Source: Alphaproteobacteria bacterium
Lineage (GTDB): Bacteria; Pseudomonadota; Alphaproteobacteria; UBA1280; UBA6503
Direction: 5' to 3'
DNA length: 64,000 bases
Assembly (NCBI GenBank): GCA_021774615.1
Contig: JAJFIW010000010.1
Location: 10,230-74,229 of the forward strand
Notes under the pieces: generated by a model
The model's database searches: none
Seen by the model: the letters and a program-made list of their open reading frames with translations, nothing else
What the model was told of the DNA's origin: nothing
Made by a program: the position numbers and the translations under genes
In this document: piece by piece, positions 12,639 to 42,853 of the stretch
How the letters are laid out: the number at the start of each line of letters is the position of its first letter
How positions within the stretch are numbered: the first letter of the stretch is position 1

Positions 12639-14738
12639 TTAGTCAGAATTAGAAACCCCATCGAGGAACCTACAGCTATTATGTATTTCAAGACGTAATG
12701 TGTTCATAGATTTCTCGAGTTCACCAAAAAGTGAATTAAGTTCAACAACTTGTTTACGCCTAACATCAATTCGAGCTAAATCCTTGCCAGCATGCTGGAT
12801 ACTCTTAATAGCTGAGGCTAAACGCTCGCTGACAGTAAAAAAATCACGTAGTTGCTTTAATTCTTGCTCCATCGCCTTTGGGTTGCCAAATTTAATAAGT
12901 TCAGCAGCCTCTACTTCACGGCGTAAAGCTTCAGCCTCTCCTTTAATGTCTGTTAGCTCTTCTCGTTGTTGGTTAATAACTGCTTCTCGTTGTGCTGCCC
13001 ATATTTCTTGGTCTTTTAGTACCATGGCGTAAGTTTCGATCTGCTTTTGTAGGGCCTCTGTTCTTTTTTGCGTTGCAACATCCTGACCTTGTGGAACAAG
13101 CCCACCTTTAGTATCAACAGCTGGTACAGAAGGTTTACCAAGAGTATCTACCTTACCTTCAACAGCGGCATCATAAAGCTTGTTAAACTTCTTACCTTTA
13201 GACCACTGGATACCATTACGACGAATAAACGCTACTATCTTTTCTTGCCCTTCCTCGGGCAAATCTGCACAGGTTGCAGCGTTAGTTATTTGAATCAACC
13301 CATCTTCGAATAAACCACGCAAAGTGGGGATAGCCCTATCACGCACCTTACAATATACTAATACATTAGTACGGCTTGTGCCCAAATAGTCTGATATCTT
13401 CTGTTGTGAAAAGCCCATATCGCTTAACACACCAATTGCATAGTACATCTCTGTTTTACTGGCACTATGAAGGCGCATATTAATAACAACCCTCAACCGT
13501 TTTTTATCTTCATCAGAAGCTATTTTACGGGTTATGCATAAGTAGTCATTTTTACCTCTATATTTAGCAGCCTGAATCCGTCGTACCCCGTCGATAATGT
13601 AGCCATCTTCACTAACAACTGCTGGGTATTGAGGGCTATTAATGTCGAAATTATTGGCAAAATCTATAAAGGATTCTTCACTCTCCTGAGACCTAAACTC
13701 AAACTCCATCTCTTTAAGGCTACTAATTGGACGCACTCCAACCTCTGCTAAAGGGTATTTCTTGTTTTCTTCTTCAGAGAACACCTTCTCGTAAGCAGGT
13801 GGTAAATCAGCATCTCTCTTATCGTTGTTTTTGTTACCAACCTGACCTTTTTTCGATAGCTTTATACTTTGATTTTTCTTACACAAAGCATCCAAGTCTT
13901 TGTAGTCACCTTTAAAGGTGTTAATAATCTCTTTTGCTCTGTCTTCGTCTGCATTTTGGAATGCCTCTGAAAGCAAGCGTAGTACTCGTTTTTCATTAAA
14001 TTTTAATTTAATGAAATCATTATGAACAGACTTTAAGTCTCTATCTATCAGGCGTTGTACATAAAAAGCGTCCATAAGCTCGTTCATGACTTGGCTTGCA
14101 CGCGAGTCTGTTACACCAAAATGGTAGGCAATCTCTTGGAAGTTATAAACACCGCCAACTTTAACATGTAATAAAGCAGCTTGTTTTTTCTCATCGCTCT
14201 CTTTGGCTACTAGTTCCGACAATTTTTGGTCAAAGAAACTATCACGCATAATTCTAAAAACAGCGTCATCTTCACGGTTGCCATAGGCTTCTGCTACCTC
14301 ACCTCGTAAAGACTCTTGCAAAGTATTTTCATGGTCAAGGTGTTGTACCAACAAAGGAGGGTCTGTTCTAAAACGTTCTTTTTCAGATGGGTTCATTTGG
14401 TCTGTCATTGCTTGGCGTGCTTGGTACTCGGGGTCACGATTACGCATTTCCATTGCTCGTGCCTCAAGGCGGCTACCAAAAAATGTATTAAACTTTACCG
14501 AAATTTCGCTACCATCTTCTTTTTCGATAACTGGTTTATAGTCGCGAACACACATTAATAAAACTTCGTAGCCTTCTTGTGCTAACTCATCAGGATCTAG
14601 ACGAAAATTACGAGAGATACTCCCAATAGCGGCACCTCTACTATCAAGGTAAGCAACAGCATCTTCAAAAGCTAAGCAATAGCCTTTATCTTGCTGTTTC
14701 ATTTTCTCTAAACTAGCTTTGGTAGTTTTCCTTGGCAC
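12639..14738 (-). CDS. Fusion protein: sigma-70-like N-terminal half (regions 2 and 4), ParB/Srx-type domain, HTH and a long C-terminal coiled coil
   Basis: Region-2-like DELAQEGYEVLLMCVRDYKP...FNTFFGSRLEARAMEMRN and region-4-like YNFQEIAYHFGVTDSRASQVMNELMDAF. ParB box PAVVSEDGYIIDGVRRIQAAKYRG, then HTH FSQQKISDYLGTSRTNVLVYCKV. The last ~150 aa are heptad-rich (EELTDIKGEAEALRREVEAAE). Confidence 0.6.
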   Translation of the reverse strand: MPRKTTKASLEKMKQQDKGYCLAFEDAVAYLDSRGAAIGSISRNFRLDPDELAQEGYEVLLMCVRDYKPVIEKEDGSEISVKFNTFFGSRLEARAMEMRNRDPEYQARQAMTDQMNPSEKERFRTDPPLLVQHLDHENTLQESLRGEVAEAYGNREDDAVFRIMRDSFFDQKLSELVAKESDEKKQAALLHVKVGGVYNFQEIAYHFGVTDSRASQVMNELMDAFYVQRLIDRDLKSVHNDFIKLKFNEKRVLRLLSEAFQNADEDRAKEIINTFKGDYKDLDALCKKNQSIKLSKKGQVGNKNNDKRDADLPPAYEKVFSEEENKKYPLAEVGVRPISSLKEMEFEFRSQESEESFIDFANNFDINSPQYPAVVSEDGYIIDGVRRIQAAKYRGKNDYLCITRKIASDEDKKRLRVVINMRLHSASKTEMYYAIGVLSDMGFSQQKISDYLGTSRTNVLVYCKVRDRAIPTLRGLFEDGLIQITNAATCADLPEEGQEKIVAFIRRNGIQWSKGKKFNKLYDAAVEGKVDTLGKPSVPAVDTKGGLVPQGQDVATQKRTEALQKQIETYAMVLKDQEIWAAQREAVINQQREELTDIKGEAEALRREVEAAELIKFGNPKAMEQELKQLRDFFTVSERLASAIKSIQHAGKDLARIDVRRKQVVELNSLFGELEKSMNTLRLEIHNSCRFLDGVSNSD

Positions 14739-15032
14739 AATACAATTCCTTTTTATTTTCTGACACTATAAGCACAAGCAAAATACAACTATAGGTACTC
14801 GCACTATCTAGATGCATAAAGAACATTGTAGAATATAATCCAAAAAAACAAAATAACTAACATGTCAGGAATTACTACTAAATAGGATTATAATAAATAG
14901 ATGTTGCACAAAAAGCGCTTAATTTGTCAGTCAGCTTTGTAGATTTGTAATAGCATATTACCCATTACTTACTATTAAGGATAAAAGTATACAGCGTACC
15001 AAGCAAGCTACTTAGTAGGGGGGGGTATTTAA

Positions 15033-16772
15033 CTAGGCAGCGCTACTAGCTGCTTTTGTTTTGAACACATCTAGGTACGAGCTTTGTTGCCCGCTGTATA
15101 GTAGAATAGACTCTTTGCTAGCGCGAGTGACTGCCATATAAAGCAAGCGACGTTCGGCGTTGCCCAATTGGGGCAATACCCGATAAGAAAATGGGTAATT
15201 ATGTTTAGATGTAAATGGCACAATTACATGGGTAAATGCCATATTTCTGCTTTCTCGAACTGGGCTAACAATAACTTTTGCAGTTGGGTCTGGTTTACGG
15301 TGTTGCGTTAACTTTTTAAGTATTTGTACCAAACTACCTTTTGTCGACAATAACTCATCTAAAGCTAGTAGTGCGTCTTGGCGGTCATCTTGGCGTAATT
15401 TTTCGAACATATGGTAAATCATAGCTTTAAAAACTACTTTCGGGCCCATTTCTGGCATCATTTTACTGTAGTTAACCAGTTTTTGGCGTAAAACACCTAG
15501 CTCTTTTAGCGCTGCTAACGGGAGGTCAGCCTCAACACCACTGGGGATCGGAGCACCTCTTTTAAGCCAACCGTCTGCCATAAGCCCATGGGAAAATAAA
15601 GTGTCAATAACTTGTGATGACAAACCAAAAACTGACAGAACATTACGTAAACGGTTATTACTCGCTCGGCTTAAGACAACCTCTAGCAAGTCGAGCACCA
15701 AGGTAGCACCTGGAGTTTCCCAAATTGAACGGGCAAAACTACTATGAGCAATACCAATATTATTAAGAACTCGCTCCACTTGACGGGCTTGTATGTCGTG
15801 GCGGGTAATAATCCCTATACTGTTGCTACTGTCTTTTGCCCAGTTGCTAACCAATTTTGCTATCTCGCGCATTTCTTGCTCTACACCTTGGCAACTAACA
15901 ATCGAGAATCGCCCACCTTGGCTAACAGCTTTATTAGGTAGCACCAATCTATCTTCTAGTGGAGATATTAGCTTATCTGAGCTGTCAACAAGTAGGCTTG
16001 GTAAGCGGTAGTTGTCTGTTAGGGTGAAGCGTTTAAGGTCGTTCATTTCTTCAAAGTCAATAAATGCATCTTTACCAAGGGCGCCTGCTCTTTTGAAAAG
16101 CATTAGGTCGTCGCAACCAAAAGCATAAATTTTTGTGCCTGCCTTTAGGTGGTCCACCAACCATAAAAGCTGGATTTGCGTTACATCTTGGAAGTTATCT
16201 ATAAAAATATGTTTAACTCTTACCGTTTCATAAATATCGTTACGCATACCGATAATATGCCTCCGAACAAGGTCGTAGCGGTCGCAAAGGCCAGCTTGTT
16301 CTAGGCGCTGCTTATAGGTATTGAAAAGGTCAAAATGGTCTTCGGTCTCGCTAGGTTTGCGCCCACGGCTTTTAAACGAACACATTATATGTTCAGCCTC
16401 TTTTACATAGCCCTTAAAGCCAACTTCTTCCATAGACTGTCGCAGTAAACGACGCACAAAATTGTTATCTGCCACCTTAGGCAGGTTATCTTTATCAGTA
16501 GCGCCCATCGCCATTAAGGGCAGGTCAACCGTAGTTCCTACAACAATCCCCGCACTAGCACTACCCAGCCTAGCAGCTAATTGCTGGCGCATAACCATTA
16601 AGCTCCGATAAGAAAAAGTAAGAACTGCAATGCTGTTAGCGCTAACCCCTTGCTCGACAAGGTAAGCAATTTTACGGAACATAACAGAAGTTTTACCTGT
16701 GCCTGGTGCCCCTAAAACAGTACAAGAATTGTCGTAAGCTATAACAGCTGATTGTTGTTTACTAAACTTCAT
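15033..16772 (-). CDS. UvrD/Rep/PcrA-family SF1 DNA helicase, short form (579 aa)
   Basis: KQQSAVIAYDNSCTVLGAPGTGKTSV (Walker A), IFIDNFQDVTQ (motif II, DExQD-like) and C-terminal LLYMAVTRASKE. Its ATG overlaps the stop of the upstream transglycosylase gene (TAATG at 16770-16774). Confidence 0.8.
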   Translation of the reverse strand: MKFSKQQSAVIAYDNSCTVLGAPGTGKTSVMFRKIAYLVEQGVSANSIAVLTFSYRSLMVMRQQLAARLGSASAGIVVGTTVDLPLMAMGATDKDNLPKVADNNFVRRLLRQSMEEVGFKGYVKEAEHIMCSFKSRGRKPSETEDHFDLFNTYKQRLEQAGLCDRYDLVRRHIIGMRNDIYETVRVKHIFIDNFQDVTQIQLLWLVDHLKAGTKIYAFGCDDLMLFKRAGALGKDAFIDFEEMNDLKRFTLTDNYRLPSLLVDSSDKLISPLEDRLVLPNKAVSQGGRFSIVSCQGVEQEMREIAKLVSNWAKDSSNSIGIITRHDIQARQVERVLNNIGIAHSSFARSIWETPGATLVLDLLEVVLSRASNNRLRNVLSVFGLSSQVIDTLFSHGLMADGWLKRGAPIPSGVEADLPLAALKELGVLRQKLVNYSKMMPEMGPKVVFKAMIYHMFEKLRQDDRQDALLALDELLSTKGSLVQILKKLTQHRKPDPTAKVIVSPVRESRNMAFTHVIVPFTSKHNYPFSYRVLPQLGNAERRLLYMAVTRASKESILLYSGQQSSYLDVFKTKAASSAA

Positions 16773-19631: not shown

Positions 19632-20003
19632 TTAGTTAGGGTTACGAGCGGCACTCGCGTTACTATCAATGTCTGTGAAAGCGTTATTGATACCTTGGCT
19701 AATTCCTGCGTAGATACCTGGGAATGCTGTAACAGCAGCACCAGCAATCACGATAACTAGACCAAAAGAGCTTTGCTGTACAAGCCACATCCACAAACCA
19801 AATAGTGAAATAAGTAATCCAACAAGAACACCAATATTACCTCTGATTAATGATTGAACATCATTAAACAAGTTATTACCCACATTACTAGTAGTACCGC
19901 CGCCGCCAACTTGCGCCATAGCAATATCTGGAAGTAATGCAAATGTAACTGCTAATAACCCCAAAACAAATAAGCCCATATTTTTTGATGATAATTTACT
20001 CAT
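19632..20003 (-). CDS. VirB2/TrbC/TraA-type conjugative propilin
   Basis: 123 aa with a signal peptide ending DIAMA-QV, then two hydrophobic helices (IGVLVGLLISLFGLWMWLV and FGLVIVIAGAAVTAFPGIYAGI). It is the first gene of the tra block. Confidence 0.6.
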   Translation of the reverse strand: MSKLSSKNMGLFVLGLLAVTFALLPDIAMAQVGGGGTTSNVGNNLFNDVQSLIRGNIGVLVGLLISLFGLWMWLVQQSSFGLVIVIAGAAVTAFPGIYAGISQGINNAFTDIDSNASAARNPN

Positions 20004-20231
20004 CTTTCCTATACTCCCAACATTATTTTTTATACCCTAAGCTTAACTAGGATTGTTCTTTCTAACTATATATCTAAAAAGAACAATACCAACAAGCCCC
20101 ATAAAACAATTATGGTGCCTATTATCAATAAATCAAGCCTATCATTATATAAAATATCTTTGTTTAGGCGATACGTGGCATTTTTCACATAAATATAGGT
20201 ATGCCTATATCAGCTAAATATGGCAGAAATG

Positions 20232-22557: not shown

Positions 22558-23013
22558 TTAGAGCAATAAAACAACAAGGCATAGCAACCCAAATGCCACA
22601 CTTTTAAAAGCAACCTGTCGCCATACTAGCCCAATATAGCCCACAAAGAAAAATGCCATCAACGCCGCATATAAAACTATAAATAAGAAACCCTCACCTA
22701 TAATCCACAAACTAACAACTGCTAACATAATGCTGACCAACTCAGTAGCAAGATATCGAGAAGATATAGAGGCACCACACTGCCTGCATTTCCCCCTAAA
22801 ACATAACCATGATAACACTGGAACTAAATCAACAGCTCTTAGGCCTTTATTGCAATAGGGGCATGAACTTGGCGGGTGCCATAAACTGCCATTTCTAGGG
22901 CACCGATACATAGCACAAGTTAGAAATGAGCCAAATACACCACCAACAACCACAGCTAGCAAAGGGAAAAACCATGGTAGCTCTACTATTACAAGCCCTA
23001 TAATATCTTCCAA
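22558..23013 (-). CDS. Truncated prepilin-peptidase-like protein: only the N-terminal Cys-rich (DiS_P_DiS-type) region, no A24 aspartyl peptidase domain
   Basis: 151 aa: FGSFLTCAMYRCPRNGS...CPYCNKGLRAVDLVPVLSWLCFRGKCRQCGASISSRYLATELV is the typical PilD/TcpJ N-terminal signature. The remaining ~60 aa are hydrophobic and contain no Asp. Only 83 nt separate it from the next gene. Confidence 0.65.
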   Translation of the reverse strand: MEDIIGLVIVELPWFFPLLAVVVGGVFGSFLTCAMYRCPRNGSLWHPPSSCPYCNKGLRAVDLVPVLSWLCFRGKCRQCGASISSRYLATELVSIMLAVVSLWIIGEGFLFIVLYAALMAFFFVGYIGLVWRQVAFKSVAFGLLCLVVLLL

Positions 23014-27715: not shown

Positions 27716-28798
27716 TTAAAATTCCATTAATGCAAATATAGGTGCTACTAGACTAGTATACATACTTACGATAAATAAGGGTAGCAATCCAGCCATCACA
27801 ATTAACATTAGTGTACCAACAGCTCTACGCATTATTCGATCATACTCTGCTGCATAAGGTTTTTTAAGGTCTTCTATTCGTTCGGCTATTTGACCAGTTT
27901 TTTCCCCAGCCTCAACAGCACTACGGAATGAGCCTTTTAATGGCACCCGTGCTAAAGCGTCACCAACTCGCATTCCTGCTTCGTGTTCGCTTGCAGCAAT
28001 CCTAAAGTTATTACCTATCATCCTGTTTTCTAGCGACCGTGCAACAGCACGCAATACATCATGAATAGGCATACCAGAGCGAACCAACGCTGGCATAAAA
28101 TATACTACTAATACTCCATTAAATGCTATAGAAATACGCCGCAATGGTGCAAGCCGCCAAATAATTCTCTCTACAAACGGTTTCATAGTCTCAGTATTAC
28201 GGGTTAAAAATAATACAGGCGGAATTGCTAATAAAACCAGAGGTACAAACCAATTGTCTTGCATCCACACAGAGAAATACCAAAAGCCACGCACAATACT
28301 AGGGAATTCATTAATTGCATCAGGTTTACGGTCAAGAACAGGGCCTAACACTAGGGGTAGCATAAACATTGCTACCCCTAACGACATAACAATAAGCATA
28401 AACCCACCAACAACTGGCATTGCTAGCTGGCGGTATAAGGATCGTGTAGAGTTCATGCGCATCTCGAGCGCTTCCACTAATTCTGGGATAGCAATACGTA
28501 GCTGGTTAGAGCGTTCGGCAGCATCTAATACTGATAGTTCTTGGTCTGTAAAGCCTAGTCCTGCTTGTCTGAGTGCATGAACTAGTGTTGTTTGTCCAGA
28601 CTCGAACTCAACAACAACCCGATTCATCCGGTTTGCTAAGGTTTTGTATTCGTCACGGGAGAAGGCGTCACAAGTATTGCGCACAGCCTCACTAACAGGC
28701 ATTTGTCCGCTACCAGAGGTTAACCATGAGGATAATGTACGGAAAAACTCAATCCTATCCCCAAGAGCTAAACTACTTATGCCAATTTCGATTCCCAT
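27716..28798 (-). CDS. GspF/PilC-family inner-membrane platform protein (R64 PilR-like)
   Basis: 360 aa with two repeated cytoplasmic helical domains, each followed by TM helices (MPVVGGFMLIVMSLGVAMFML; GTLMLIVMAGLLPLFIV). It lies immediately after the GspE-type ATPase. Confidence 0.8.
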   Translation of the reverse strand: MGIEIGISSLALGDRIEFFRTLSSWLTSGSGQMPVSEAVRNTCDAFSRDEYKTLANRMNRVVVEFESGQTTLVHALRQAGLGFTDQELSVLDAAERSNQLRIAIPELVEALEMRMNSTRSLYRQLAMPVVGGFMLIVMSLGVAMFMLPLVLGPVLDRKPDAINEFPSIVRGFWYFSVWMQDNWFVPLVLLAIPPVLFLTRNTETMKPFVERIIWRLAPLRRISIAFNGVLVVYFMPALVRSGMPIHDVLRAVARSLENRMIGNNFRIAASEHEAGMRVGDALARVPLKGSFRSAVEAGEKTGQIAERIEDLKKPYAAEYDRIMRRAVGTLMLIVMAGLLPLFIVSMYTSLVAPIFALMEF

Positions 28799-28838: not shown

Positions 28839-31253
28839 TTATATCCGTACATCTTCAGCTGATTTACTAATTTTCTTCTCTCTAACCACGTCTTTATCAC
28901 GTACTTCTATAGATAGCTCAAGGATAACACGCCCCAGCTCTTCGGCATCAGTGATACCGGCTTTAACGTGCATAATTCCCATATGCCCCATTGGCTTCCA
29001 ACCTGCCGCAATTGCAATTTCTTCAAGGCGGTTAAAGTCTCGGTCGGCTGTTGCTTGAACCATTTCTTTATTTGGTACCAACCACTCAGCTACGGCTATT
29101 CGCCCACGATAACCTGTAAACCCACAGTTAGGGCAGCCATCAGGGCTTGCCCGATATAGCTCCGACCCTTCAACAGGAACTTTGTAATAATCAAAACAAA
29201 ATTGCGTCCATTCGTCGGGCTTGTCCATCGTTTGGCGACAATGGGTACACAACCTCCGGACCAATCTTTGTGCTGCAATACCACGAACATACGAAACCAA
29301 GAAACCACGAATGCCTAACTCGTCCAAACGAACAATTGCATCAACAGAAGTATTAGTGTGCAATGTAGAAAATACCAAGTGACCAGTGTTAGCAGCTTCA
29401 AAAACTAACTTTGCCATTGTATTATCACGAACCTCACCAAAGATAATAACATCAGGGTCAGCCCTAAGTGATGACTTAAGTAACTCTGTACCACTCCTTG
29501 AGCTATCACCCTCAGCTACTTCCATTTGTACAGCGTAACCTTCAACCCTTTTCTCGGGAGGGTCTTCAATGGTATGAACACTTAAACCACGTGCCATTGG
29601 GTTTGCACTAATAACAGCCGAGTGGATAGACTCTGTTTTACCAGACCCTGTAGGCCCAGTCCAAAATATAACACCATTTGAAGCACTGGCCGCAGCTTGT
29701 ATACTTGCAATAAACTCGTCAGAATAACCTAAACGTTCCATTGACAAAGAGTCAGGGTTCAAACGCCGGATAACAATCCGTGGTACAGGCCCTAGACGCC
29801 CTGAATGGGGCTGTATCTGAACACGCCAGTCAAAACCAGCACGAGAAAATGCGCCTTTATTAGGGTGGTTTTGGTTTACCTTAGGCATCCGTGCAATGTT
29901 CTCAATCCGCACTCTTAGCCGCTCAAGCTGATCTAGGGAAACAACCTCACGCGGGCGAACCATACCATCGACACGGTATTTAACAGTGGCTTTATTCTCC
30001 CCTTTCATATTGGGGTCAATATGAATATCTGATGCTTTAGCATCTACCGCAGTTGTTACAATCCGGTCAAGTAATGCTTCAGCTTCCATCCCCTCATCAA
30101 GGTCAGCACCTTCGTCTCCACTTACCCAGAACTGCCCACAAACATCTTTAACTGCAAAGTGCCAGACAAACTGGAACCCAGGCATAACTTCGAGCAACAT
30201 CGACTCTAGTACTAAGTCTCTCATATCGCTGTCATGTGCAAGGTGTAATTCGTGAGCATCTTTCTCGCGCTTACGTAGTGGGATAATCCTTCTTTCACGT
30301 AGCAGGTTTTGTATCCTGATATCAAGCTCTTTACGTAAAGACCTTGCACCATCGGGCAAATCCTGAATACTCATAATTTCTAGCCGGTTCTGGCTACGAG
30401 CAATTGCCCTTGCTAATTGCTGACGGTCAATAAGTTGTTCATTAATTAGGTCTCTTACTGACAGCTGTGGTAAGCGGTCTTCCTCAATAAGCTCTTTAAT
30501 ACGTGCTACAGCAAGGCTATCAACGTTTAAATCTTCACTAATTCGTAAAACATTTAACGCTCGTAAATAAAGCCTTTCATGAGAAGGGCGGGTATTATCT
30601 TCGCCTTGGCCGTATAGATCATCAGTCTCTTTATCACGTTCTAAAACAAGATCAGGGAGGGAATCTTCTGTTCCATGCTCAATATCTGCAACTAGATCTG
30701 TATCTGGTAAGTCATCAAACCCGAAGGATAAATCATCAATTTCTGAGAATTCATCTTCTTCTGGCAAATCAACCTCTTGGAATTCTAAGCCATCTATTGT
30801 ATCTGTTGCTTTACCAGTATTTTTACCCACTGGCGCTGACATAACCATATTCTCTGTTTCGTCATCAAGGAAGTCATCTAAACTGCTAGCATCACTCTTG
30901 CCTGATAGCTCATGTTCATGCCCCTCATCTTTTACAGAGTCATCATCAAGGCTAACTTCATCAAAAACATCTTCTACAAAATCATGGATAGGCTCTTCAG
31001 AAGAGCTATTGTCCAGAAAATCATCTAGCACTTCATCATCACTCTTCTCAATGTTATTGTCATCATGACTTTCTTGAGAGTTTGGTGAAGGTGGCATAGT
31101 TTCTAGTATGTCTTCGTCAGAAACAGCAACATCCTGATCTTGCAACTGCTGATCAGGATTTTGCTGTTCTACTTGTTCTTTGGATATATCAACGCTGTCT
31201 GCGGCATCTTCTTCTACCGCAGACGACGTTGACTTTTCTTTTTCATCAACCAT
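28839..31253 (-). CDS. GspE/PilB-family type IV pilus assembly ATPase (R64 PilQ-like) with a ~215-aa acidic N-terminal extension
   Basis: Walker A GPTGSGKT, Walker B/Asp box DPDVIIFGEVRD, His box GHLVFSTLHTN and tetracysteine CTHC...CPNC. N-terminal residues 1-215 are >35% Asp/Glu with repeated LDDFLD. Confidence 0.9.
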   Translation of the reverse strand: MVDEKEKSTSSAVEEDAADSVDISKEQVEQQNPDQQLQDQDVAVSDEDILETMPPSPNSQESHDDNNIEKSDDEVLDDFLDNSSSEEPIHDFVEDVFDEVSLDDDSVKDEGHEHELSGKSDASSLDDFLDDETENMVMSAPVGKNTGKATDTIDGLEFQEVDLPEEDEFSEIDDLSFGFDDLPDTDLVADIEHGTEDSLPDLVLERDKETDDLYGQGEDNTRPSHERLYLRALNVLRISEDLNVDSLAVARIKELIEEDRLPQLSVRDLINEQLIDRQQLARAIARSQNRLEIMSIQDLPDGARSLRKELDIRIQNLLRERRIIPLRKREKDAHELHLAHDSDMRDLVLESMLLEVMPGFQFVWHFAVKDVCGQFWVSGDEGADLDEGMEAEALLDRIVTTAVDAKASDIHIDPNMKGENKATVKYRVDGMVRPREVVSLDQLERLRVRIENIARMPKVNQNHPNKGAFSRAGFDWRVQIQPHSGRLGPVPRIVIRRLNPDSLSMERLGYSDEFIASIQAAASASNGVIFWTGPTGSGKTESIHSAVISANPMARGLSVHTIEDPPEKRVEGYAVQMEVAEGDSSRSGTELLKSSLRADPDVIIFGEVRDNTMAKLVFEAANTGHLVFSTLHTNTSVDAIVRLDELGIRGFLVSYVRGIAAQRLVRRLCTHCRQTMDKPDEWTQFCFDYYKVPVEGSELYRASPDGCPNCGFTGYRGRIAVAEWLVPNKEMVQATADRDFNRLEEIAIAAGWKPMGHMGIMHVKAGITDAEELGRVILELSIEVRDKDVVREKKISKSAEDVRI

Positions 31254-32019: not shown

Positions 32020-33894
32020 TTACTTAAGCCGTCTAACCTGCATTAATACCAAGAACTCCACATCTTCAAACGAGATGTTTTCTTCATTAACACCTTTACC
32101 AGCAATTGGAATTCCACGTAGAATCGGAACACCAGACTCTTTATCAATTGCAATTGTACGAGTTAAACCACCAATTACTTTAACTTCACCATCACGCATC
32201 CGCACTTTCTGGTCAATAATCCTAGTATTTACAACTGGGATATCATCAGAAAATTGCTGGCCATTAAAGTTTTGGATCAAGGCTTCTTGGGCAACAATTT
32301 CCGTAATAGGGATTTGCACCGCAATTGTATGAGGGTCGTTACCACTAGCAATTTGTGCAGTAACCGCAAACTGGATCCCTTCGAATTGAGATTTCTGTGT
32401 TGCTGTAGTATTTACAATATTACCACCGTCAGATGCAATAACCTCACTCTCACGAACAAAGAATACATCATTACGGCCATCAATTAATATAGCCTTTTGC
32501 CTATCCATAACCTCTAAGGTTGGTTTCATAAGCTGATAAGTAGTAGAGAAACTCTCGATAAACCTAACCACACCCTCTATTGAGTTATCACGGATACCGG
32601 CAAAACCACCCGCACTAGTAAGGTTTGCCAACATACCTGCTATAGAGTCGTTAGGTCCACCAATTCTAGGAGTATCAGCACCTGAAAAACCAACACCTAT
32701 ATTAGAATTTTTAATACCTACATCTAAGATTGACGCAAGTTTTGTACCTTGTTCAAAAGAACGCTCTTTACTAACCGCAATAATACGGGCTTCAACCAGT
32801 AAGCGACGGCTTGCGATGTCTTCTGTTTGTTTAATGATTAAATCAGCATCACGCAGCACTCTACGAGAAGCTTGCATTTGCACTACACCCACCGAACGGT
32901 TTAAGCGTACATAACCACAAGGGAGCTCTACAGCTACATTGCCACTACTATCGCCAACACTAGATGGAGGCGATAATAACCCTGATGAGCTACTACCATC
33001 ACTGGTATTACAAGAATTACTTATCAATGTTTCAAGGTCTGTCTTAAGTTCATCTATCAAGTCTCTATCTTGACGAATAACAACCTCAGCAGAACCACCT
33101 ACGGCATTGTCTCCACTGCCACCAGCTTCATTACTTCCTGTGTCAGAGCTAGCAGAGCCACCACTCAATGAAGCGCTATAACTAATACTTTGTGTTTCAC
33201 TACGTAAAGGTTCGTATAGGTTTAGTTTCCAAGTCCTTGTAGGCAGGCCACCAATAGAGAAATAGTCGCCTTGCTCAACCAATGTTAGCCCATGAGGAAC
33301 AAGGATTGCATCAAAAGCATCGGTACATGTTATATCTTTAAAAGATGCACTAACTCGTGTGTTCGCTAAACGCTCGCGGTTTTCAGTAATAACTAAGTTC
33401 ATGTCACATTGTTTTGCTAAACCACGGATTGCATCAACCAAAGCGACATCATCCCCAGGAGAGAATTGTTCAATTCTGGCAACATCAGCCGCTGGCAAAA
33501 CTAATAAACGGCGCTCGCCTTCACGGACGATCTGAACCTTATAAACATCTTCTATATAACTACGAGCTTCATTAAATTTTAAGTCTGCGATTAAAAGATC
33601 TTTACCAGAATTTTTCCTAATACCAGCACCATAACGTATAGCAACATTATAAGTGTTTGCTACTTGTTCCATTAAGTCACTTAGCGTTACATGCCCTTCA
33701 ACTCTTAAAATAGCATCCGCACGCATTTGGCGGCTAGAGATAGGCTCTCCAACACCAACTACAGCAGAGCCATTCTCGCGATAGTCTTTAAAGGCATTAG
33801 CAGGGCTTTCGCGCTGCACATAACTAACATTATCACACGCTGCTAATGCAACTGTAGTAACTGCTAGGCAAACAAATAAGATCTTCTTAAGCAT
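32020..33894 (-). CDS. Lipoprotein secretin of a type IVb pilus (R64 PilN / BfpB-like)
   Basis: Lipobox VALAAC. The C-terminal secretin signature is VIGGLTRTIAIDKESGVPILRGIPIAGKG...FLVLMQV. Confidence 0.85.
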   Translation of the reverse strand: MLKKILFVCLAVTTVALAACDNVSYVQRESPANAFKDYRENGSAVVGVGEPISSRQMRADAILRVEGHVTLSDLMEQVANTYNVAIRYGAGIRKNSGKDLLIADLKFNEARSYIEDVYKVQIVREGERRLLVLPAADVARIEQFSPGDDVALVDAIRGLAKQCDMNLVITENRERLANTRVSASFKDITCTDAFDAILVPHGLTLVEQGDYFSIGGLPTRTWKLNLYEPLRSETQSISYSASLSGGSASSDTGSNEAGGSGDNAVGGSAEVVIRQDRDLIDELKTDLETLISNSCNTSDGSSSSGLLSPPSSVGDSSGNVAVELPCGYVRLNRSVGVVQMQASRRVLRDADLIIKQTEDIASRRLLVEARIIAVSKERSFEQGTKLASILDVGIKNSNIGVGFSGADTPRIGGPNDSIAGMLANLTSAGGFAGIRDNSIEGVVRFIESFSTTYQLMKPTLEVMDRQKAILIDGRNDVFFVRESEVIASDGGNIVNTTATQKSQFEGIQFAVTAQIASGNDPHTIAVQIPITEIVAQEALIQNFNGQQFSDDIPVVNTRIIDQKVRMRDGEVKVIGGLTRTIAIDKESGVPILRGIPIAGKGVNEENISFEDVEFLVLMQVRRLK

Positions 33895-36524: not shown

Positions 36525-36550
36525 ACTATACCTCATATATTACTATAAAC

Positions 36551-36579
36551 AAGAAAGCCGCCATAATGGCGGCTTTCTT
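36551..36579. terminator. Bidirectional intrinsic terminator between convergent genes
   Basis: AAGAAAGCCGCC-ATAAT-GGCGGCTTTCTT, a perfect 12-bp stem. Confidence 0.8.
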
Positions 36580-36663
36580 TCGTAGGTATCTATCCCAAGC
36601 CATGAAATGGCAGTTAGAGATGAGATTTTGCTTTTTGTGGGATAGACACTAGGGCAGATGCTT

Positions 36664-37005
36664 TTAATGCACGTATGCACAAACATCATGAATATTAACA
36701 ACAGGGTAAAGTTTGCGCTCTCCTTCTAAATGGGCAATTTTATTATCGCACCATAATTTAAAAGTGCTCTCACAGCCCCTGATTGCACTTAATGCAGTAC
36801 CTTCAACAAAAATATTAATTGTTAATTTAATATCTTCTGCTTGTAGATGACCGAACCCTTCTTCAAGGGTATCAGGGAGGTTATCTATAAAAGAAACCAT
36901 CCCTTGGTAAATAGCACGCATAATATAGTCTTCTCTAGCGTCAATTTCATCAAGAAGGTATGTTTCTAGGTTGTAATCAATAACAGCTTCGTCTAAAAGC
37001 AACAT
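36664..37005 (-). CDS. Hypothetical 113-aa protein, paralog B of a tandem pair
   Basis: AIYQGMVSFIDNLPDTL / IKLTINIFVEGT / FKLWCDNKIAHL aligns with the neighbouring gene product. Both are the same length (113 aa). Confidence 0.5.
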   Translation of the reverse strand: MLLLDEAVIDYNLETYLLDEIDAREDYIMRAIYQGMVSFIDNLPDTLEEGFGHLQAEDIKLTINIFVEGTALSAIRGCESTFKLWCDNKIAHLEGERKLYPVVNIHDVCAYVH

Positions 37006-37027
37006 GTAGCCTCCTACTTTTAAAAAA

Positions 37028-37369
37028 TTACTGGTTAGATATAGCTACGGTAAATTCGTGGTTATATTCAATACATTTGTTCCTAAATATATATTCAAGG
37101 CTGGTATGCACCCAATTATTGAAATATGGGTCTTTTAACAAAAGACTGAGTATATAAGAGTCACTAATTACTAGTAATAGCCTTATCTTAACAACAGAAT
37201 TAGCTGGTATATTATTATAAGTGCCATTGTTTATTACTATTTCAGGGAGGGTACTAATTAATTTTTCAGCCCCTGTGTAAACCCCAGCCAAAACATTTTC
37301 TTTTGTAGTGTTTGGTGAGATTATATTTCTTACTCTCATTACGGCTCTAATAAGTATTGAATCTGTCAT
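37028..37369 (-). CDS. Hypothetical 113-aa protein, paralog A of a tandem pair
   Basis: GVYTGAEKLISTLPEIV / VKIRLLLVISDS / FNNWVHTSLEYI aligns with 36664-37005. A purine-rich tract (pyrimidine-rich leader on the coding strand) lies at 37385-37413. Confidence 0.5.
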   Translation of the reverse strand: MTDSILIRAVMRVRNIISPNTTKENVLAGVYTGAEKLISTLPEIVINNGTYNNIPANSVVKIRLLLVISDSYILSLLLKDPYFNNWVHTSLEYIFRNKCIEYNHEFTVAISNQ

Positions 37370-37468
37370 AGTTTTTATTCCTCAAGAAAGGAAAATTAAA
37401 AAGAAAGGGAAACCTAGATCGGATTATTATTTACAATAGAGGGAGTAACCATACTTTTCAAGTAGAAA

Positions 37469-37486
37469 ACCACCCCTAAGGGTGGT
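37469..37486 (-). terminator. Intrinsic terminator after the 98-aa gene
   Basis: ACCACCC-CTAA-GGGTGGT, followed on the minus strand by TTTTCTAC. Confidence 0.6.
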
Positions 37487-37510
37487 CTCTACATTATAGT
37501 TCTAATAGAG

Positions 37511-37807
37511 CTACTGGCGAATGCCACCTTCTTGACCATCTCCCATCTCGTCGAGGTTCTCGCTAAACAAGAAAGTAGAGAAAAAGTAATAACAACCGCC
37601 TTGCAAAACCTCTTTAGTACGGATCGTCCAGTTAGGGGTAAAACCTGAAAGGCCAGTAGTAATACGGATAAGTTGGTCGGTAGCAAATTCCACAGGGTGG
37701 CAAGCTTCAGTTAGTTTGTCTTCTCCATCAGCCTTCATAACAAGACCAGTCCAATAAGAAAAAGCCAAAACTGATGCTAATAAAAATATAGTGCGTACTA
37801 AGTCCAC
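37511..37807 (-). CDS. Small secreted or membrane-anchored hypothetical protein (98 aa)
   Basis: N-terminal hydrophobic segment IFLLASVLAFSYWTGLV, two Cys, and GGGGGGAATATT upstream of the start. Confidence 0.45.
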   Translation of the reverse strand: MDLVRTIFLLASVLAFSYWTGLVMKADGEDKLTEACHPVEFATDQLIRITTGLSGFTPNWTIRTKEVLQGGCYYFFSTFLFSENLDEMGDGQEGGIRQ

Positions 37808-37869
37808 AATATTCCCCCCAAGGAAATTAATAATATGGGAGAACTTATCATCTTTTTGTAGAAAAAACA

Positions 37870-37895
37870 GTTATTAACTATAATATGTTAATAAC
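37870..37895. promoter_or_regulatory. 9-bp inverted repeat bracketing a TATAAT-like hexamer in a divergent intergenic region
   Basis: GTTATTAAC-TATAATAT-GTTAATAAC. The direct repeat TTGCTATAT occurs twice just downstream (about 37919-37938). Confidence 0.35.
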
Positions 37896-37968
37896 ATTAA
37901 CTTACCTATGTTGCCAGTTTGCTATATTTTGCTATATATAGTAACTATAAATATAGAGTGGGTTACAC

Positions 37969-39315: not shown

Positions 39316-39777
39316 TTAAGGCTGCAGCAGACGGTTTTTATTAATCCAACCTTCTTTTCCGCTTACTTCTATTTCGCATAAACCTAAAGCACAACGGGTT
39401 ACTAGTACTACAACACCAGCTTCAAGGCGCAGCACTGGTCGTTTGCCATCGCGGTCTTTATAAACTGTTACAGGCTCACCATTGCTAATAAGCCCTGTTT
39501 TACGGGTGGAAAAGAAGTTTTGGTATATCCAACCTTCTTCCCCTTCAATATCTCTAACCTGATACCACCCCCCAAACCTAGCAATTGCTCGCACTGGGTA
39601 GCCTCGGTATTTGTATACCCATAAAATAGGGTAGCTCATCCCTGGCCCCACTCGGACATTAACTTTATGGCTTTTAATACTGCCTGCAACTGGCACAAAA
39701 CTTCGATCGGGCCCTGCTTGTGCAGTGTTAACCCCTAGAAATAGTAATAGTGTAATTATAACAACTAGTTTACTCAT
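39316..39777 (-). CDS. Secreted bacterial SH3-domain protein (tandem SH3b, DUF1058-like)
   Basis: Signal peptide ending NTAQA. VNVRVGPGMSYPILWVYKYRGYPVRAIARFGGWYQVRDIEGEEGWIY and a second similar unit ending CEIEVSGKEGWINKNRL. Confidence 0.7.
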   Translation of the reverse strand: MSKLVVIITLLLFLGVNTAQAGPDRSFVPVAGSIKSHKVNVRVGPGMSYPILWVYKYRGYPVRAIARFGGWYQVRDIEGEEGWIYQNFFSTRKTGLISNGEPVTVYKDRDGKRPVLRLEAGVVVLVTRCALGLCEIEVSGKEGWINKNRLLQP

Positions 39778-41285: not shown

Positions 41286-41324
41286 ATTTTAACCTGCAAA
41301 CACAAAATTGGTACAAAAAAGCAC

Positions 41325-41360
41325 AAAAAAACTCCCCTTCGCAAAAAGGGGAGTTTTTTT
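41325..41360 (-). terminator. Intrinsic terminator after kinase-fold paralog 1
   Basis: ACTCCCCTT-CGCAAA-AAGGGGAGT, flanked by A- and T-runs. Confidence 0.75.
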
Positions 41361-41369
41361 TATCGCTAA

Positions 41370-42431: not shown

Positions 42432-42716
42432 ATTTTAAGTTCTCCGAAAAGGAAAAGGGAAAGGGAAAGAAGAAAGTAAAGCCTTATAAACAACCTGTAT
42501 ACGATTACATACCTAAAGTCAATACAGTGAAAATTAAAATAATCGTCAACTAAAAGTTGAAAAACACAAAATAAATATCCATAATAAGATATGAAAAAAG
42601 AACTAGGGAGATATGCGAGTAAACTACGTATGGTTAATTCGGATATGATTGGCTTAAATAAGCTAATCAGATGTTCTTTTGGAAGTGATATGCCTACTAT
42701 TATGTTAGATAAACTT

Positions 42717-42747
42717 ACCCCGCCTATAATAAGGCGGGGTTCTTTTT
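42717..42747 (+). terminator. Orphan + strand intrinsic terminator in a 422-bp gap
   Basis: ACCCCGCC-TATAATAA-GGCGGGGT followed by TCTTTTT. No track ORF ends here. Confidence 0.5.
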
Positions 42748-42795
42748 GTAATATAGTAATTTAACCATGTAAGTACAAAGTTAAACGACTATAAA

Positions 42796-42828: not shown

Positions 42829-42853
42829 CTAAATGATGTAACTAGACCTGCAA

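What the first reader, a model, noticed from the sequence alone, without database searches (positions are those of the whole stretch)
12639..14738. Single polypeptide combining sigma-70 regions 2 and 4 with a ParB/Srx domain, HTH and coiled coil
Residues ~50-100 (DELAQEGYEVLLMCVRDYKP...FNTFFGSRLEARAMEMRN) look like sigma-70 region 2. Residues ~190-225 (YNFQEIAYHFGVTDSRASQVMNELMDAF) look like region 4.2. Residues ~340-420 carry a ParB N-terminal box (DGYIIDGVRRIQAAKYRG, the GxRR arginine patch used for CTP binding in ParB), followed by an HTH and a ~150-aa coiled coil. ParB-like proteins are common on conjugative elements and ECF-like sigmas regulate some of them. A covalent fusion of the two is unusual. 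It could be an element-specific transcription factor that is loaded or clamped on DNA in a ParB-like manner. It is preceded by its own 294-bp upstream region.
Basis: partly seen in the sequence, partly recalled or inferred. Interest (0 to 1): 0.65.

Follow-up and report, generated by a model that had tools for sequence, protein, structure and literature searches.

The report
Sigma-like/ParB hybrid in a secretion cluster
A real, conserved 699-residue protein joins a very divergent sigma-factor-like module to a ParB-type DNA clamp and a coiled coil, and it is most likely the built-in regulator of the type IV secretion/pilus gene cluster it sits in, in an uncultured proteobacterial lineage.

Summary
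The ORF (12639-14738, minus strand, 699 aa) is real and is not a chimera. More than 120 full-length homologues (41-70% identity) come from independent assemblies, and unitigs from two runs span the domain junction.

The middle part (residues ~320-535) is a clear ParB N-domain plus ParB/KorB/Noc-type HTH domain (Foldseek E 1e-6). It keeps the Box II G..R arginine and the Box III Asn. It lacks the Box III Glu and the Box I motif. The C-terminus (554-698) is three long helices, not a canonical ParB dimerisation domain.

The N-terminal half is the most conserved part. No Pfam match reaches threshold and HMMER finds no relatives outside the family. Profile-profile comparison gives one colinear sigma2-to-sigma4 alignment (probability 86%, P 5e-6; reversed-profile controls P >= 0.026). 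Sigma factors also top two Foldseek searches, but not significantly. The sigma likeness is therefore remote but probably real.

The gene lies between a UvrD-like helicase gene and tra genes, in a conserved ~35-kb F-like T4SS plus type IV pilus cluster next to dnaN/recF/gyrB. No relaxase, coupling protein, ParA or integrase was recognised in the window. A conserved TGTCAG/CTGACA element lies upstream of the gene.

Best reading: a KorB/BisD-like clamp-type regulator with a fused sigma-like effector. This is a new variant of a known kind, and its function is inferred.

The parts
12639..14738 (-). Whole gene: 699-aa sigma-like/ParB/coiled-coil protein (GTG start, stop codon 12639-12641)
   Evidence: ORF list. 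At least 120 full-length homologues. Alignment A1. Independent contigs at 100% identity.
14430..14654 (-). Residues 29-103: sigma-70 region 2-like helical bundle (2.1/2.2-like DELAQEGYEVLLMCVRDYKP ... FNTFFGSRLEARAMEMRN), interrupted by a family-specific beta-hairpin at residues 70-80
   Evidence: hhalign of residues 14-130 against group 2/3 sigma factors: probability 84%, P 7.7e-6. A2 against A5: probability 69%, aligned to RpoH 59-120. Pfam Sigma70_r2 in register in P0098, E 6e-4, 20 bits, below the cutoff of 24. AF2 pLDDT ~90. Sigma factors top the Foldseek lists without being significant.
14199..14429 (-). Residues 104-180: linker between the two sigma-like parts. It carries invariant motifs (RNRDPEYQARQA, DPPLLVQHLD) but low model confidence (pLDDT <50 at residues 129-137)
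   Evidence: Invariant columns in A1 and A2. pLDDT profile.
14043..14198 (-). Residues 181-232: sigma-70 region 4-like helix-turn-helix (KKQAALLHVKVGGVYNFQEIAYHFGVTDSRASQVMNELMDAF)
   Evidence: Pfam Sigma70_r4 in 14 of 55 members, best E 1.9e-4, covering profile positions 7-43. hhalign probability 45-47%, P 2e-4, in register with region 4.1-4.2. Generic HTH families score similarly.
13839..14042 (-). Residues 233-300: four-helix extension of the N-terminal module, with no detectable relatives
   Evidence: AF2 helices 235-300 with pLDDT 87-92. No family hits.
13515..13781 (-). Residues 320-408: ParB/Srx N-terminal (NTPase-fold) domain. Box II is D383-G384-V-R386-R387. Box III is reduced to N420/R422 just downstream
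   Evidence: TIGR00180 E 4.5e-8. Spo0J alignment. Foldseek hits to Noc, ParB and KorB at E ~1e-6, probability 1.0. Conservation in A1. PHROG ParB families.
13134..13514 (-). Residues 409-535: ParB/KorB/Noc-type HTH DNA-binding domain plus following helices
   Evidence: Foldseek hits 7nfu, 6t1f, 8qa9 and 1r71. Pfam KorB, HTH_ParB and HTH_Crp_2 sub-threshold hits in many members. pLDDT >93.
12642..13079 (-). Residues 554-699: three long helices (554-617, 620-656, 661-698), a putative coiled-coil dimerisation or interaction domain with invariant W580 and R584
   Evidence: AF2 with DSSP. Invariant columns.
14739..15032 (-). 294-bp upstream intergenic region
14857..14875 (-). GTAATTC-CTGACATGTTAG: the window's copy of the family-wide CTGACA/TGTCAG element. 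It is a candidate operator or loading site; in most relatives the CTGACA arm doubles as the -35 box of the gene's promoter
   Evidence: TGTCAG-N10-32-CTGACA occurs once per locus in 19 of 35 loci, always just upstream of this gene (within ~210 nt of the start codon where scored). About 0.8 occurrences are expected by chance in 577 kb.
15033..16772 (-). UvrD/Rep-like SF1 helicase (579 aa), the conserved upstream neighbour
   Evidence: Pfam UvrD-helicase 1.3e-18. Present upstream in 28 of 35 loci.

Best explanation
The gene encodes the dedicated DNA-bound regulator of the type IV secretion/type IV pilus gene cluster in which it is embedded. It works like the ParB-family transcription regulators KorB, BisD and VirB, but carries its own effector module.

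Shown here:
- It has a ParB N-domain and a ParB-type HTH domain.
- A long helical C-terminus replaces the usual dimerisation domain.
- The N-terminal half is a very divergent but colinear sigma-70-like sigma2-linker-sigma4 module.
- Its position inside the cluster is fixed across the family.

Inferred model:
- The protein dimerises through the C-terminal helices.
- It recognises a specific site through the central HTH. The best candidate is the conserved TGTCAG/CTGACA element at its own promoter.
- It binds a nucleoside triphosphate through the conserved Box II arginine (R387). This closes it as a clamp that stays on or spreads over the cluster DNA.
- It uses the sigma-like module to contact RNA polymerase or a sigma-binding partner and so control the tra/pil operons and its own promoter.
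- Because the Box III glutamate is absent, nucleotide turnover is probably slow or absent.
For: - The ParB fold and DNA-binding domain are well supported: TIGR00180 E 4.5e-8, Spo0J E 6e-4, and Foldseek hits to Noc, ParB and KorB at E 1e-6, probability 1.0, TM up to 0.66.
- D383 and G384 are invariant. R387, N420 and R422 are conserved in at least 90% of 55 sequences.
- Sigma likeness: hhalign of residues 1-300 against 8 sigma factors gives probability 86%, P 5.2e-6, in one alignment from query 29-223 to RpoE 28-179. Residues 14-130 against group 2/3 sigma factors give 84%, P 7.7e-6.
- Controls with reversed sigma profiles, the ParB N-domain and the coiled coil give P >= 0.026.
- Pfam r2 and r4 sub-threshold hits fall in the right order and register. 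Sigma factors are the top named Foldseek hits in both PDB and BFVD.
- The N-terminal module is the most conserved part of the protein: 64% mean column identity against 49% overall.
- The gene always sits between UvrD/SLT and the p548..TraB..TraC genes in 35 loci whose upstream regions range from 23 to 70% G+C.
- A unique conserved dyad lies at its own promoter.
- No ParA is present in the 64 kb, so a partition role is unlikely.
- Precedents for ParB-type clamps that regulate transfer genes: PMC11790492 (KorB), PMC12409273 (BisD), PMC10770331 (VirB).
Against: - No functional test of any step was possible.
- Sigma similarity is below every curated threshold.
- HMMER sees no sigma similarity against PDB or 1.84 billion proteins. 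An ECF-only profile gives nothing. The Foldseek hits are not significant (best E 0.09 and 0.03).
- The region 4 match is barely better than that of an unrelated HTH in the same protein.
- The tryptophans of sigma region 2.3 are not kept (FFGSRLE against TWWIRQ / VHWIKAE).
- The two promoters recognisable in the cluster look like ordinary sigma-70 promoters: CTGACA-N17-TAnnnT, and TTGnnn-N16/17-CATAAT upstream of the pilin gene. No special promoter class points to a dedicated sigma factor.
- Box I and the Box III glutamate are not conserved, so nucleotide binding is itself uncertain.
- The neighbouring helicase hints at DNA processing rather than transcription.
Confidence: 0.5

Rival explanations
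1. It is a DNA-processing or DNA-recruitment factor of the secretion system rather than a transcription regulator. Together with the adjacent UvrD-like helicase, it would bind a specific DNA site and mark, unwind or hand over DNA to the T4SS, as a relaxosome-accessory or GGI-ParB-like protein. The candidate site is the conserved hairpin-forming TGTCAG...CTGACA element with its flanking CCACACCCC, in an oriT-like arrangement. In this reading the N-terminal HTH module is simply a second DNA-binding domain.
For: A UvrD-like helicase is directly upstream in 28 of 35 loci. The conserved inverted repeat has variable loop length and a conserved flank, resembling the oriT pattern of a hairpin plus an adjacent conserved sequence. 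There are two HTH domains plus a ParB fold. The gene lies in the middle of the tra operon.
Against: No relaxase, coupling protein (VirD4/TraD) or other Walker-A protein that could serve as one is seen in the 64 kb. The 3' arm of the repeat plus the N17-TGnTAnnnT block reads as an ordinary promoter. The upstream arm and hairpin are missing in the window's own subclade. The colinear sigma2-sigma4 similarity is not explained by this reading.
Confidence: 0.2
2. It is a true alternative sigma factor tethered to DNA. The N-terminal module would replace the housekeeping sigma on core RNA polymerase, and the ParB clamp would restrict its action to the cluster by sliding along it and delivering polymerase to cluster promoters.
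For: There is a colinear sigma2-sigma4 alignment, and the most conserved sigma region 2.1/2.2 positions are kept (D48, L52, Q54, E55, L61, V64, P69). The sigma2-sigma4 linker is invariant but predicted to be disordered, as expected for a segment that orders inside polymerase. One source annotated a homologue as a sigma-70 family protein (P0043).
Against: The same points as for the main model, plus the following. The region 2.3/2.4 melting and -10-reading residues are not conserved. A beta-hairpin is inserted in sigma2. The promoters seen in the cluster are of the housekeeping type. No sigma model reaches threshold.
Confidence: 0.15
3. The sigma resemblance is convergent or due to chance. In this reading the N-terminal half is a lineage-specific helical domain with a generic HTH, and the protein is just an unusual long ParB/KorB homologue (a repressor or nucleoid-organising protein).
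For: HMMER profile searches find no relative of the N-terminal module outside the family. All Pfam and Foldseek sigma hits are sub-threshold. Several generic HTH families score as well as Sigma70_r4.
Against: hhalign gives P 5e-6 to 8e-6 with clean reversed-profile and other-domain controls, and a single alignment covers both sigma domains in order. Sigma factors rank first in two independent structure libraries.
Confidence: 0.15

Closest known systems
KorB of IncP plasmid RK2 (ParB-family CTP-dependent sliding clamp and global repressor of plasmid and transfer genes; PMC11790492, PMC13584720)
   Same: Both have a ParB N-domain followed by a KorB/ParB-type HTH domain (Foldseek 8qa9, 8qa8 and 1r71 at E 2e-5 to 0.15; Pfam KorB sub-threshold in 5 of 55 members). 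Both are encoded among T4SS genes. The likely autoregulatory site lies at the gene's own promoter.
   Different: KorB needs a separate partner (KorA or TrbA) to act on promoters, has a partner ParA (IncC) and a canonical C-terminal dimerisation domain. This protein has a fused ~300-residue sigma-like module, a 145-residue helical C-terminus, no ParA nearby and no Box III glutamate.
BisD of ICEclc (ParB-like CTP clamp that activates transfer-competence promoters together with BisC; PMC12409273)
   Same: Both are ParB-like clamps carrying an extra, non-ParB activator domain, and both are encoded within a T4SS-bearing region. In BisD the GxxR arginine is essential; the equivalent R387 is conserved here.
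   Different: The extra domain of BisD is not sigma-like and works through a separate protein, BisC. No sequence relationship between the extra domains was found: the N-terminal profile hits only this family. Mobility of the present cluster is not shown.
Sigma-70 family, sigma2-sigma4 architecture (ECF/group 4 and group 3 sigma factors such as RpoE, RpoH and FliA)
   Same: There is a colinear match to region 2.1-2.2 and region 4.1-4.2 with a linker between them. The Q-E-(G) and F-x-T-(F/Y) signatures are conserved.
   Different: The match is below all curated thresholds. An 8-10-residue beta-hairpin is inserted in sigma2. The linker is ~80 residues with its own invariant motifs. The region 2.3 tryptophans are absent. 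The module is fused to 400 further residues. RNA polymerase binding is untested.
Phage ParB-CTPase/Sigma70 fusion protein uvig_297896_22 (survey of ParB-fold fusions; PMC12704722)
   Same: A ParB NTPase fold is covalently joined to a Sigma70-annotated domain. That protein shows the fold can bind ATP rather than CTP.
   Different: It is a phage protein with Box II GEHRVRA, against DGVRRIQA here. No homology to the present family was detected. The present family adds a ParB HTH domain and a coiled coil and lies in a bacterial T4SS cluster.
PhyR-type sigma-factor mimicry (my own knowledge; Pfam PhyR_sigma2 seen only for a control sigma factor)
   Same: A sigma2-sigma4-like module is built into a larger regulator and could serve as a protein-interaction surface rather than as a sigma factor.
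   Different: PhyR joins the module to a receiver domain and binds the anti-sigma NepR. No receiver domain or anti-sigma candidate was identified here. This is an analogy only.

Membership tests
ParB/Srx (ParB-CTPase fold) superfamily | ParB N-terminal domain fold | tested here: met
   Foldseek hits to Noc 7nfu, ParB 6sdk and 6t1f, and Spo0J 1vz0 at E ~1e-6 to 1e-5, probability 1.0. TIGR00180 E 4.5e-8, below its 58-bit cutoff. Pfam ParB_N is sub-threshold in 8 of 55 members.
ParB/Srx (ParB-CTPase fold) superfamily | Box II GxxR phosphate-binding arginine | tested here: met
   G384 is invariant and R387 is conserved in at least 90% of 55 sequences. R386 is variable.
ParB/Srx (ParB-CTPase fold) superfamily | Box III ENLQR (Asn plus the Glu linked to hydrolysis) and Box I (C motif, QPR) | tested here: not met
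   Aligned to Spo0J, ENLQR corresponds to I419-N420-M-R422-L. The Asn is kept and the Glu is replaced. Box I NPxQPR corresponds to the variable EFEFRSQ. The assignment of roles to these residues rests on the literature (PMC12704722) and my own knowledge.
ParB/Srx (ParB-CTPase fold) superfamily | Nucleotide (CTP, ATP or GTP) binding and N-gate closure | not testable with these tools
   This needs DRaCALA or ITC and cross-linking assays.
Canonical ParB (ParABS partition protein) | Partner ParA ATPase and N-terminal LG-R/K-GL ParA-binding motif | tested here: not met
   No KGGxGK[ST] ATPase occurs in any frame of the 64-kb window. The N-terminus is occupied by the sigma-like module.
Canonical ParB (ParABS partition protein) | Central HTH DNA-binding domain | tested here: met
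   Foldseek alignments of ~200 columns cover the N-domain plus DNA-binding domain of ParB, Noc and KorB, and the KorB DNA-binding domain 1r71 alone has TM 0.57-0.65.
Canonical ParB (ParABS partition protein) | Compact C-terminal dimerisation domain; 16-bp palindromic parS sites | tested here: not met
   The C-terminus is three long helices, 554-698. No recurring palindrome of 12 bp or more occurs in the window. The only conserved dyad has a variable 16-29 nt spacer.
Sigma-70 family | Region 2 (Pfam Sigma70_r2) match at or above the gathering score | tested here: not met
   The best hit is 20.0 bits against a cutoff of 24 (P0098, E 6e-4). It appears in 2 of 55 members and not in the window protein.
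Sigma-70 family | Region 4 (Sigma70_r4 or r4_2) match at or above the gathering score | tested here: not met
   The best E is 1.9e-4. It appears in 14 of 55 members at E <= 0.01. The window protein scores 13.8 bits against a cutoff of 24.1.
Sigma-70 family | Remote homology: colinear sigma2-linker-sigma4 by profile-profile comparison | tested here: met
   hhalign probability 86%, P 5.2e-6, query 29-223 to RpoE 28-179. For sigma2 alone, probability 84%, P 7.7e-6. Reversed and other-domain controls give P >= 0.026. The sigma profiles were validated. The probability is below the 95% usually required.
Sigma-70 family | Sigma2/sigma4 three-dimensional fold | tested here: inconclusive
   Sigma factors are the top named hits in PDB (5e17_F at E 0.09; the SigE N-domain 8b3z_D at TM 0.51, rmsd 3.8 Å) and in BFVD (phage sigma factors at E 0.15-0.27). 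None reaches E <= 0.001.
Sigma-70 family | Binding to RNA polymerase core and promoter-specific initiation | not testable with these tools
   This needs pull-down assays and in vitro transcription.

The most novel reading that the evidence does not exclude
The protein is a DNA-tethered sigma factor. A nucleotide-gated ParB clamp would load at the TGTCAG/CTGACA site and slide over the ~35-kb secretion/pilus cluster while carrying a covalently attached sigma2-sigma4 module that recruits core RNA polymerase. Promoter choice would then be set by where the clamp is allowed to travel rather than by promoter sequence alone. This would be a previously undescribed way of confining a sigma factor to one chromosomal region.
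Probability: 0.15. Interest if true: 0.9.

Novelty: new variant of a known kind. Interest (0 to 1): 0.6.

Why it matters
ParB-family nucleotide switches are now known to regulate transcription over long distances (KorB, BisD, VirB). In those cases the contact with the transcription machinery is made by a separate partner or an unrelated domain. Here a whole MAG-only proteobacterial lineage, which includes a MarineProteo1 genome, encodes a ParB-type clamp covalently joined to a module that looks like sigma2-sigma4. The gene is fixed inside a T4SS/type IV pilus cluster.

If the sigma-like module touches RNA polymerase, this would give a one-polypeptide system for studying how a sliding clamp talks to polymerase. 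It would also be a candidate for a region-restricted sigma factor.

Even in the conservative reading, the work defines an unannotated, well-conserved protein family. It has no Pfam or NCBIfam model, and its N-terminal module has only 16 representatives among 1.84 billion proteins. The work also identifies a candidate binding site that makes the question directly testable.

Tried and rejected
- HMMER profile of the N-terminal module against PDB sequences gave no sigma hit.
- The same profile against 1.84 billion representatives returned only family members, fragments, and one junk tandem-repeat translation, P0129. There are therefore no stand-alone or differently fused relatives.
- hhalign against a single RpoE sequence and against an ECF-only alignment gave nothing. 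Only profiles that include group 2/3 sigma factors gave signal.
- tblastn for sigma genes in the fetched loci found none.
- A search for recurring palindromes or parS-like sites and for repeated 12-mers in the window found nothing tied to this gene.
- The defence-system reading was rejected. PADLOC has no hit for the protein, and the helicase only gives generic GajB/UvrD matches with no GajA partner.
- The phage origin reading was rejected. PHROGs gives only ParB-like matches for the middle part.
- Rfam found no RNA family in the window.
- Exact-sequence look-ups of the window's own contig failed, so the region beyond TraC could not be extended. The partial ORF that runs off the window's left end is a low-complexity acidic/proline-rich membrane protein, not a coupling protein.
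- The promoter scan of the immediate region was at background level.
- The idea that CTGACA is a site for a special sigma factor was weakened when it turned out to sit 17 nt upstream of an extended -10 box, like an ordinary -35 box.
Full report
**1. The observation**

The window holds an ORF at 12639-14738 on the minus strand. It has a GTG start and encodes 699 aa. An AAGGA ribosome-binding site lies about 9 nt upstream, and a 294-bp gap separates it from the stop of the upstream gene at 15033. The description of the sequence is therefore correct.

**2. Real gene or chimera**

A word-indexed HMMER search of 5.8 billion proteins returned 140 hits. The 120 listed cover 92-100% of the query in all but a few fragments, are 683-797 aa long and are 41-70% identical. 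They come from NCBI, JGI, ENA and Logan assemblies.

A 55-sequence alignment (A1) shows the same order of blocks in every member. Only three short linkers and the extreme N-terminal Lys/Ala-rich tail vary.

The window sequence occurs in three runs of one biofilm-metagenome study. Their contigs match at 100% identity with no indels. Two of them (13589-14330 and 13373-13987) span the junction between the N-terminal module and the ParB part.

**3. The ParB part**

- NCBIfam TIGR00180 matches residues 335-459 at E 4.5e-8, below its cutoff.
- Thermus Spo0J (1vz0) matches residues 336-466 at E 6e-4.
- PHROG ParB families match at E 2e-5.
- The full-length AlphaFold2 model has mean pLDDT 81.7, and above 90 for residues 320-530.
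- With Foldseek, the model finds Noc, ParB, Spo0J, KorB and pNOB8 ParB with 32 hits at E <= 0.001. The best is E 9e-7, with probability 1.0 and target TM-scores up to 0.66. The alignments of ~200 columns cover both the N-domain and the HTH DNA-binding domain.

In the alignment to Spo0J/ParB, Box II GERR corresponds to G384-V-R386-R387. D383 and G384 are invariant, and R387 is kept in at least 90% of members. Box III ENLQR corresponds to I-N420-M-R422-L, so the Asn is kept and the Glu is lost. Box I (NPxQPR) is not conserved.

The fold and its key phosphate-binding arginine are therefore present. The residues tied to cytidine recognition and hydrolysis are not. Which nucleotide is bound, if any, is open. 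A 2025 survey showed that ParB folds can bind CTP, ATP or GTP depending on these motifs (PMC12704722).

**4. The C-terminus**

Residues 554-698 are modelled as three long helices (554-617, 620-656, 661-698) with pLDDT 75-91. They carry invariant W580 and R584. This replaces the compact dimerisation domain of canonical ParB. Dimerisation through this region is an inference.

**5. The N-terminal half: sigma or not**

This is the most conserved part of the protein. Mean column identity is 64% in A2 against 49% overall.

Evidence against a sigma relationship at ordinary sensitivity:
- No Pfam model reaches its gathering score. In the window protein, Sigma70_r4 scores E 0.042 and 13.8 bits.
- Across 55 members, r4 appears in 14 (best E 1.9e-4) and r2 in 2 (best E 6e-4, 20 bits against a cutoff of 24). 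Generic HTH families score as well as r4.
- A HMMER profile of residues 14-300 finds no sigma factor in PDB.
- The same profile finds only 16 proteins among 1.84 billion representatives. All are family members, fragments, or one junk repeat.

Evidence for a sigma relationship:
- I built sigma profiles and validated them. RpoE matches 1or7 at 100%. All six ECF sequences pass Pfam r2 and r4. The group 2/3 profile hits RpoH, RpoS, FliA and SigA in PDB at E down to 1e-109.
- hhalign of the family N-terminus against group 2/3 sigma factors gives probability 69-84% and P 4e-5 to 8e-6. Residues 36-102 align to RpoH 59-120 (regions 2.1-2.2), with an 8-residue insertion that AF2 models as a beta-hairpin.
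- Residues 1-300 against a mixed 8-sigma profile give one colinear alignment, query 29-223 to RpoE 28-179. It runs from sigma2 through region 4.2 with probability 86% and P 5.2e-6.

Controls:
- Reversed sigma profiles give P >= 0.026.
- The family's ParB N-domain and coiled coil give P >= 0.24.
- The family's ParB HTH matches region 4 with P 6e-4 to 1e-3. The region 4 match (P 2e-4) is therefore not specific on its own, but the sigma2 match and the colinearity are.
- An ECF-only profile gave nothing.

Structure: the AF2 model of residues 14-300 has pLDDT ~90 for the first 90 residues. Foldseek gives no significant hit. The top-ranked hits in PDB are still T. thermophilus and M. tuberculosis SigA, sigma-28, WhiG, the SigE N-domain (TM 0.51, rmsd 3.8 Å over 74 columns), RpoE and AlgU. 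In the viral library two of the five best hits are annotated phage sigma factors.

My reading is that the N-terminal half most likely descends from, or at least folds like, a sigma2-linker-sigma4 module (about 0.7). It is far too diverged to be filed as a sigma-70 family member. The positions most conserved in sigma region 2.1/2.2 (D, L, Q-E, L, V, P) coincide with family-invariant positions (D48, L52, Q54, E55, L61, V64, P69). The region 2.3 tryptophans are not kept.

Between the two sigma-like parts lies an ~80-residue linker with invariant motifs (RNRDPEYQARQA, DPPLLVQHLD) that AF2 cannot place (pLDDT <50 at residues 129-137). This pattern suggests a segment that becomes ordered only on a partner. 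That is an inference.

**6. Genomic context**

All neighbours are on the same strand. In transcription order:
- a type IV pilus set: secretin at 32020-33894, T2SSE ATPase at 28839-31253, T2SSF at 27716-28798, and prepilin peptidase at 22558-23013;
- a TrbC/VirB2-like pilin (19632-20003);
- TraE;
- an SLT transglycosylase;
- a UvrD/Rep-like helicase (15033-16772);
- this gene;
- three large unannotated proteins;
- TraB/TrbI;
- F-type TraC (TIGR02746, E 2e-57).

tblastn of the window's proteins against 35 homologous loci shows the same order nearly everywhere that enough flank is available. The helicase is directly upstream in 28 of 35 loci.

The loci come from MAGs labelled Proteobacteria, Alphaproteobacteria or 'Magnetococcales', including MarineProteo1_Bin2. 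Their contigs reach 1.35 Mb. The closest is UBA6503 at 69% identity.

In the window the cluster has the same G+C (~0.40) as its flanks. It abuts housekeeping genes: ComM, RecF, GyrB, DnaN and MnmE. It also abuts ankyrin-repeat proteins. No tRNA is present. No integrase, relaxase or coupling-protein family was recognised. The only Walker-A proteins are RecF, ComM, the pilus ATPase, the helicase and TraC, and there is no ParA-type ATPase. PADLOC gives no defence assignment.

The cluster therefore looks like a long-resident, lineage-typical apparatus. A mobile conjugative element is not demonstrated.

**7. A conserved cis element**

In the 300 nt upstream of the gene, the most widespread k-mers across loci of 23-70% G+C were CCCTGTCAG and CTGACAC. 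The pattern TGTCAG-N10-32-CTGACA occurs once per locus in 19 of 35 loci, always just upstream of this gene (within ~210 nt of the start codon where scored). It occurs nowhere else in 577 kb, where about 0.8 occurrences are expected by chance.

The consensus is CCACACCCC-TGTCAG-TTTT-(loop)-AAAA-CTGACA. It is followed 14 nt later by TGC-TAnnnT. The 3' arm therefore reads as a -35 box with a 17-nt spacer and an extended -10 box, which is a housekeeping-type promoter whose -35 box lies in an inverted repeat.

In the window's subclade only the WWTTY-CTGACA arm survives. L014 has the perfect palindrome CTGACATGTCAG, and the window has CTGACATGTTAG at 14857-14868.

A second conserved promoter, TTGnnn-N16/17-(CC)CATAAT, lies upstream of the pilin gene. 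In the window it is TTGATT at 20131-20136 and CATAAT at 20109-20114.

The dyad is the best candidate for the protein's operator or loading site. The absence of any unusual promoter class argues mildly against a dedicated sigma specificity.

**8. Mechanism**

I commit to the following model at about 0.5 confidence. The protein is a ParB-type, probably nucleotide-gated, DNA-bound regulator of the T4SS/pilus cluster. It dimerises through its C-terminal helices. It recognises the CTGACA/TGTCAG element at its own promoter. It uses the fused sigma-like module to engage RNA polymerase or a sigma-binding partner.

The fold assignments, conservation, synteny and cis element are shown. Dimerisation, nucleotide binding, site recognition, spreading and polymerase contact are inferred by analogy with KorB, BisD and VirB (PMC11790492, PMC12409273, PMC10770331).

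The rivals are:
- a DNA-processing or recruitment role with the adjacent helicase (0.2);
- a true DNA-tethered sigma factor (0.15, the most novel reading);
- a chance or convergent sigma resemblance in an otherwise unusual KorB-like protein (0.15).

**9. Comparison and novelty**

The protein is a member of the ParB/Srx fold superfamily, with fold and Box II met. It is not a canonical partition ParB: it has no ParA, no parS-type palindromes and a different C-terminus. It cannot be filed as a sigma-70 family member, because the curated thresholds are not met.

Fusion of a ParB fold to a Sigma70-annotated domain has been recorded for a gut-phage protein that binds ATP (PMC12704722). That protein has different motifs (GEHRVRA) and is not detectably related.

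The present family is unannotated. Its architecture is a full sigma2-sigma4-like module, a ParB N-domain with HTH, and a coiled coil, in a fixed place inside a T4SS cluster. I rate it a new variant of a known kind, with interest 0.6.

Noticed in passing
window 14857-14875 (minus strand); loci L001-L035, usually 10-210 nt upstream of the homologous gene: There is a family-wide conserved element, CCACACCCC-TGTCAG-TTTT..AAAA-CTGACA-N14-TGC-TAnnnT. It is an inverted repeat whose 3' arm doubles as a -35 box. It occurs once per locus and only upstream of this gene. It is reduced to WWTTYCTGACA in the window's subclade. Its hairpin potential with variable loop length could also fit an oriT-like or RNA element.
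   Followed up: partly
window 20109-20136 (minus strand); L005, L006, L018, L020, L028, L030, L034 about 3-7 kb upstream of the gene: A conserved housekeeping-type promoter, TTGnnn-N16/17-(CC)CATAAT, lies in front of the TrbC/VirB2-like pilin gene across loci of very different G+C.
   Followed up: partly
window 1-35036: A ~35-kb single-strand cluster combines F-like T4SS genes (TraC, TraB/TrbI, TraE, VirB2-like pilin, SLT) with a type IVb-like pilus set (secretin, T2SSE, T2SSF, prepilin peptidase). No relaxase, coupling protein, ParA, integrase or tRNA was recognised in the 64 kb. Several large conserved proteins (548, 950, 681, 533 and 450 aa) have no family assignment.
   Followed up: partly
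window 39774-58917: Origin-type housekeeping genes (ComM, RecF, GyrB, DnaN, MnmE) lie directly beside the cluster. Two ankyrin-repeat proteins (51817-53472 and 55062-56015) lie among them, which hints at a host-associated lifestyle.
   Followed up: no
window 42796-42828 and 43964-43996: Two identical copies of a bidirectional terminator-like hairpin, GCAAAAGCCCCTCTAAAAAGAGGGGCTTTTTCG, flank the 368-aa ORF at 42854-43960.
   Followed up: partly
window ~14334-14363 (residues 126-135): The segment DPPLLVQHLD is invariant in 55 homologues but is modelled with pLDDT <50. It is a conserved but apparently unstructured stretch in the linker between the two sigma-like parts.
   Followed up: no
window 36525-37968: A stretch of about 1.4 kb has no ORF of 120 aa or more on either strand and no Rfam match.
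   Followed up: no
L002, L003, L007, L008, L010, L011 (about 14.7-20.4 kb in the loci): In one subclade the homologues of the 950-aa and 681-aa genes are inverted relative to the rest of the cluster. In L015 and L018 the UvrD-like helicase is missing between SLT and the gene.
   Followed up: no
Homologues P0032, P0043, P0050, P0056, P0070 and others (alignment A1 columns 1-80): Many homologues carry an N-terminal Lys/Ala/Pro-rich tail of up to ~70 residues, of histone H1-like composition. It is almost absent from the window protein.
   Followed up: no
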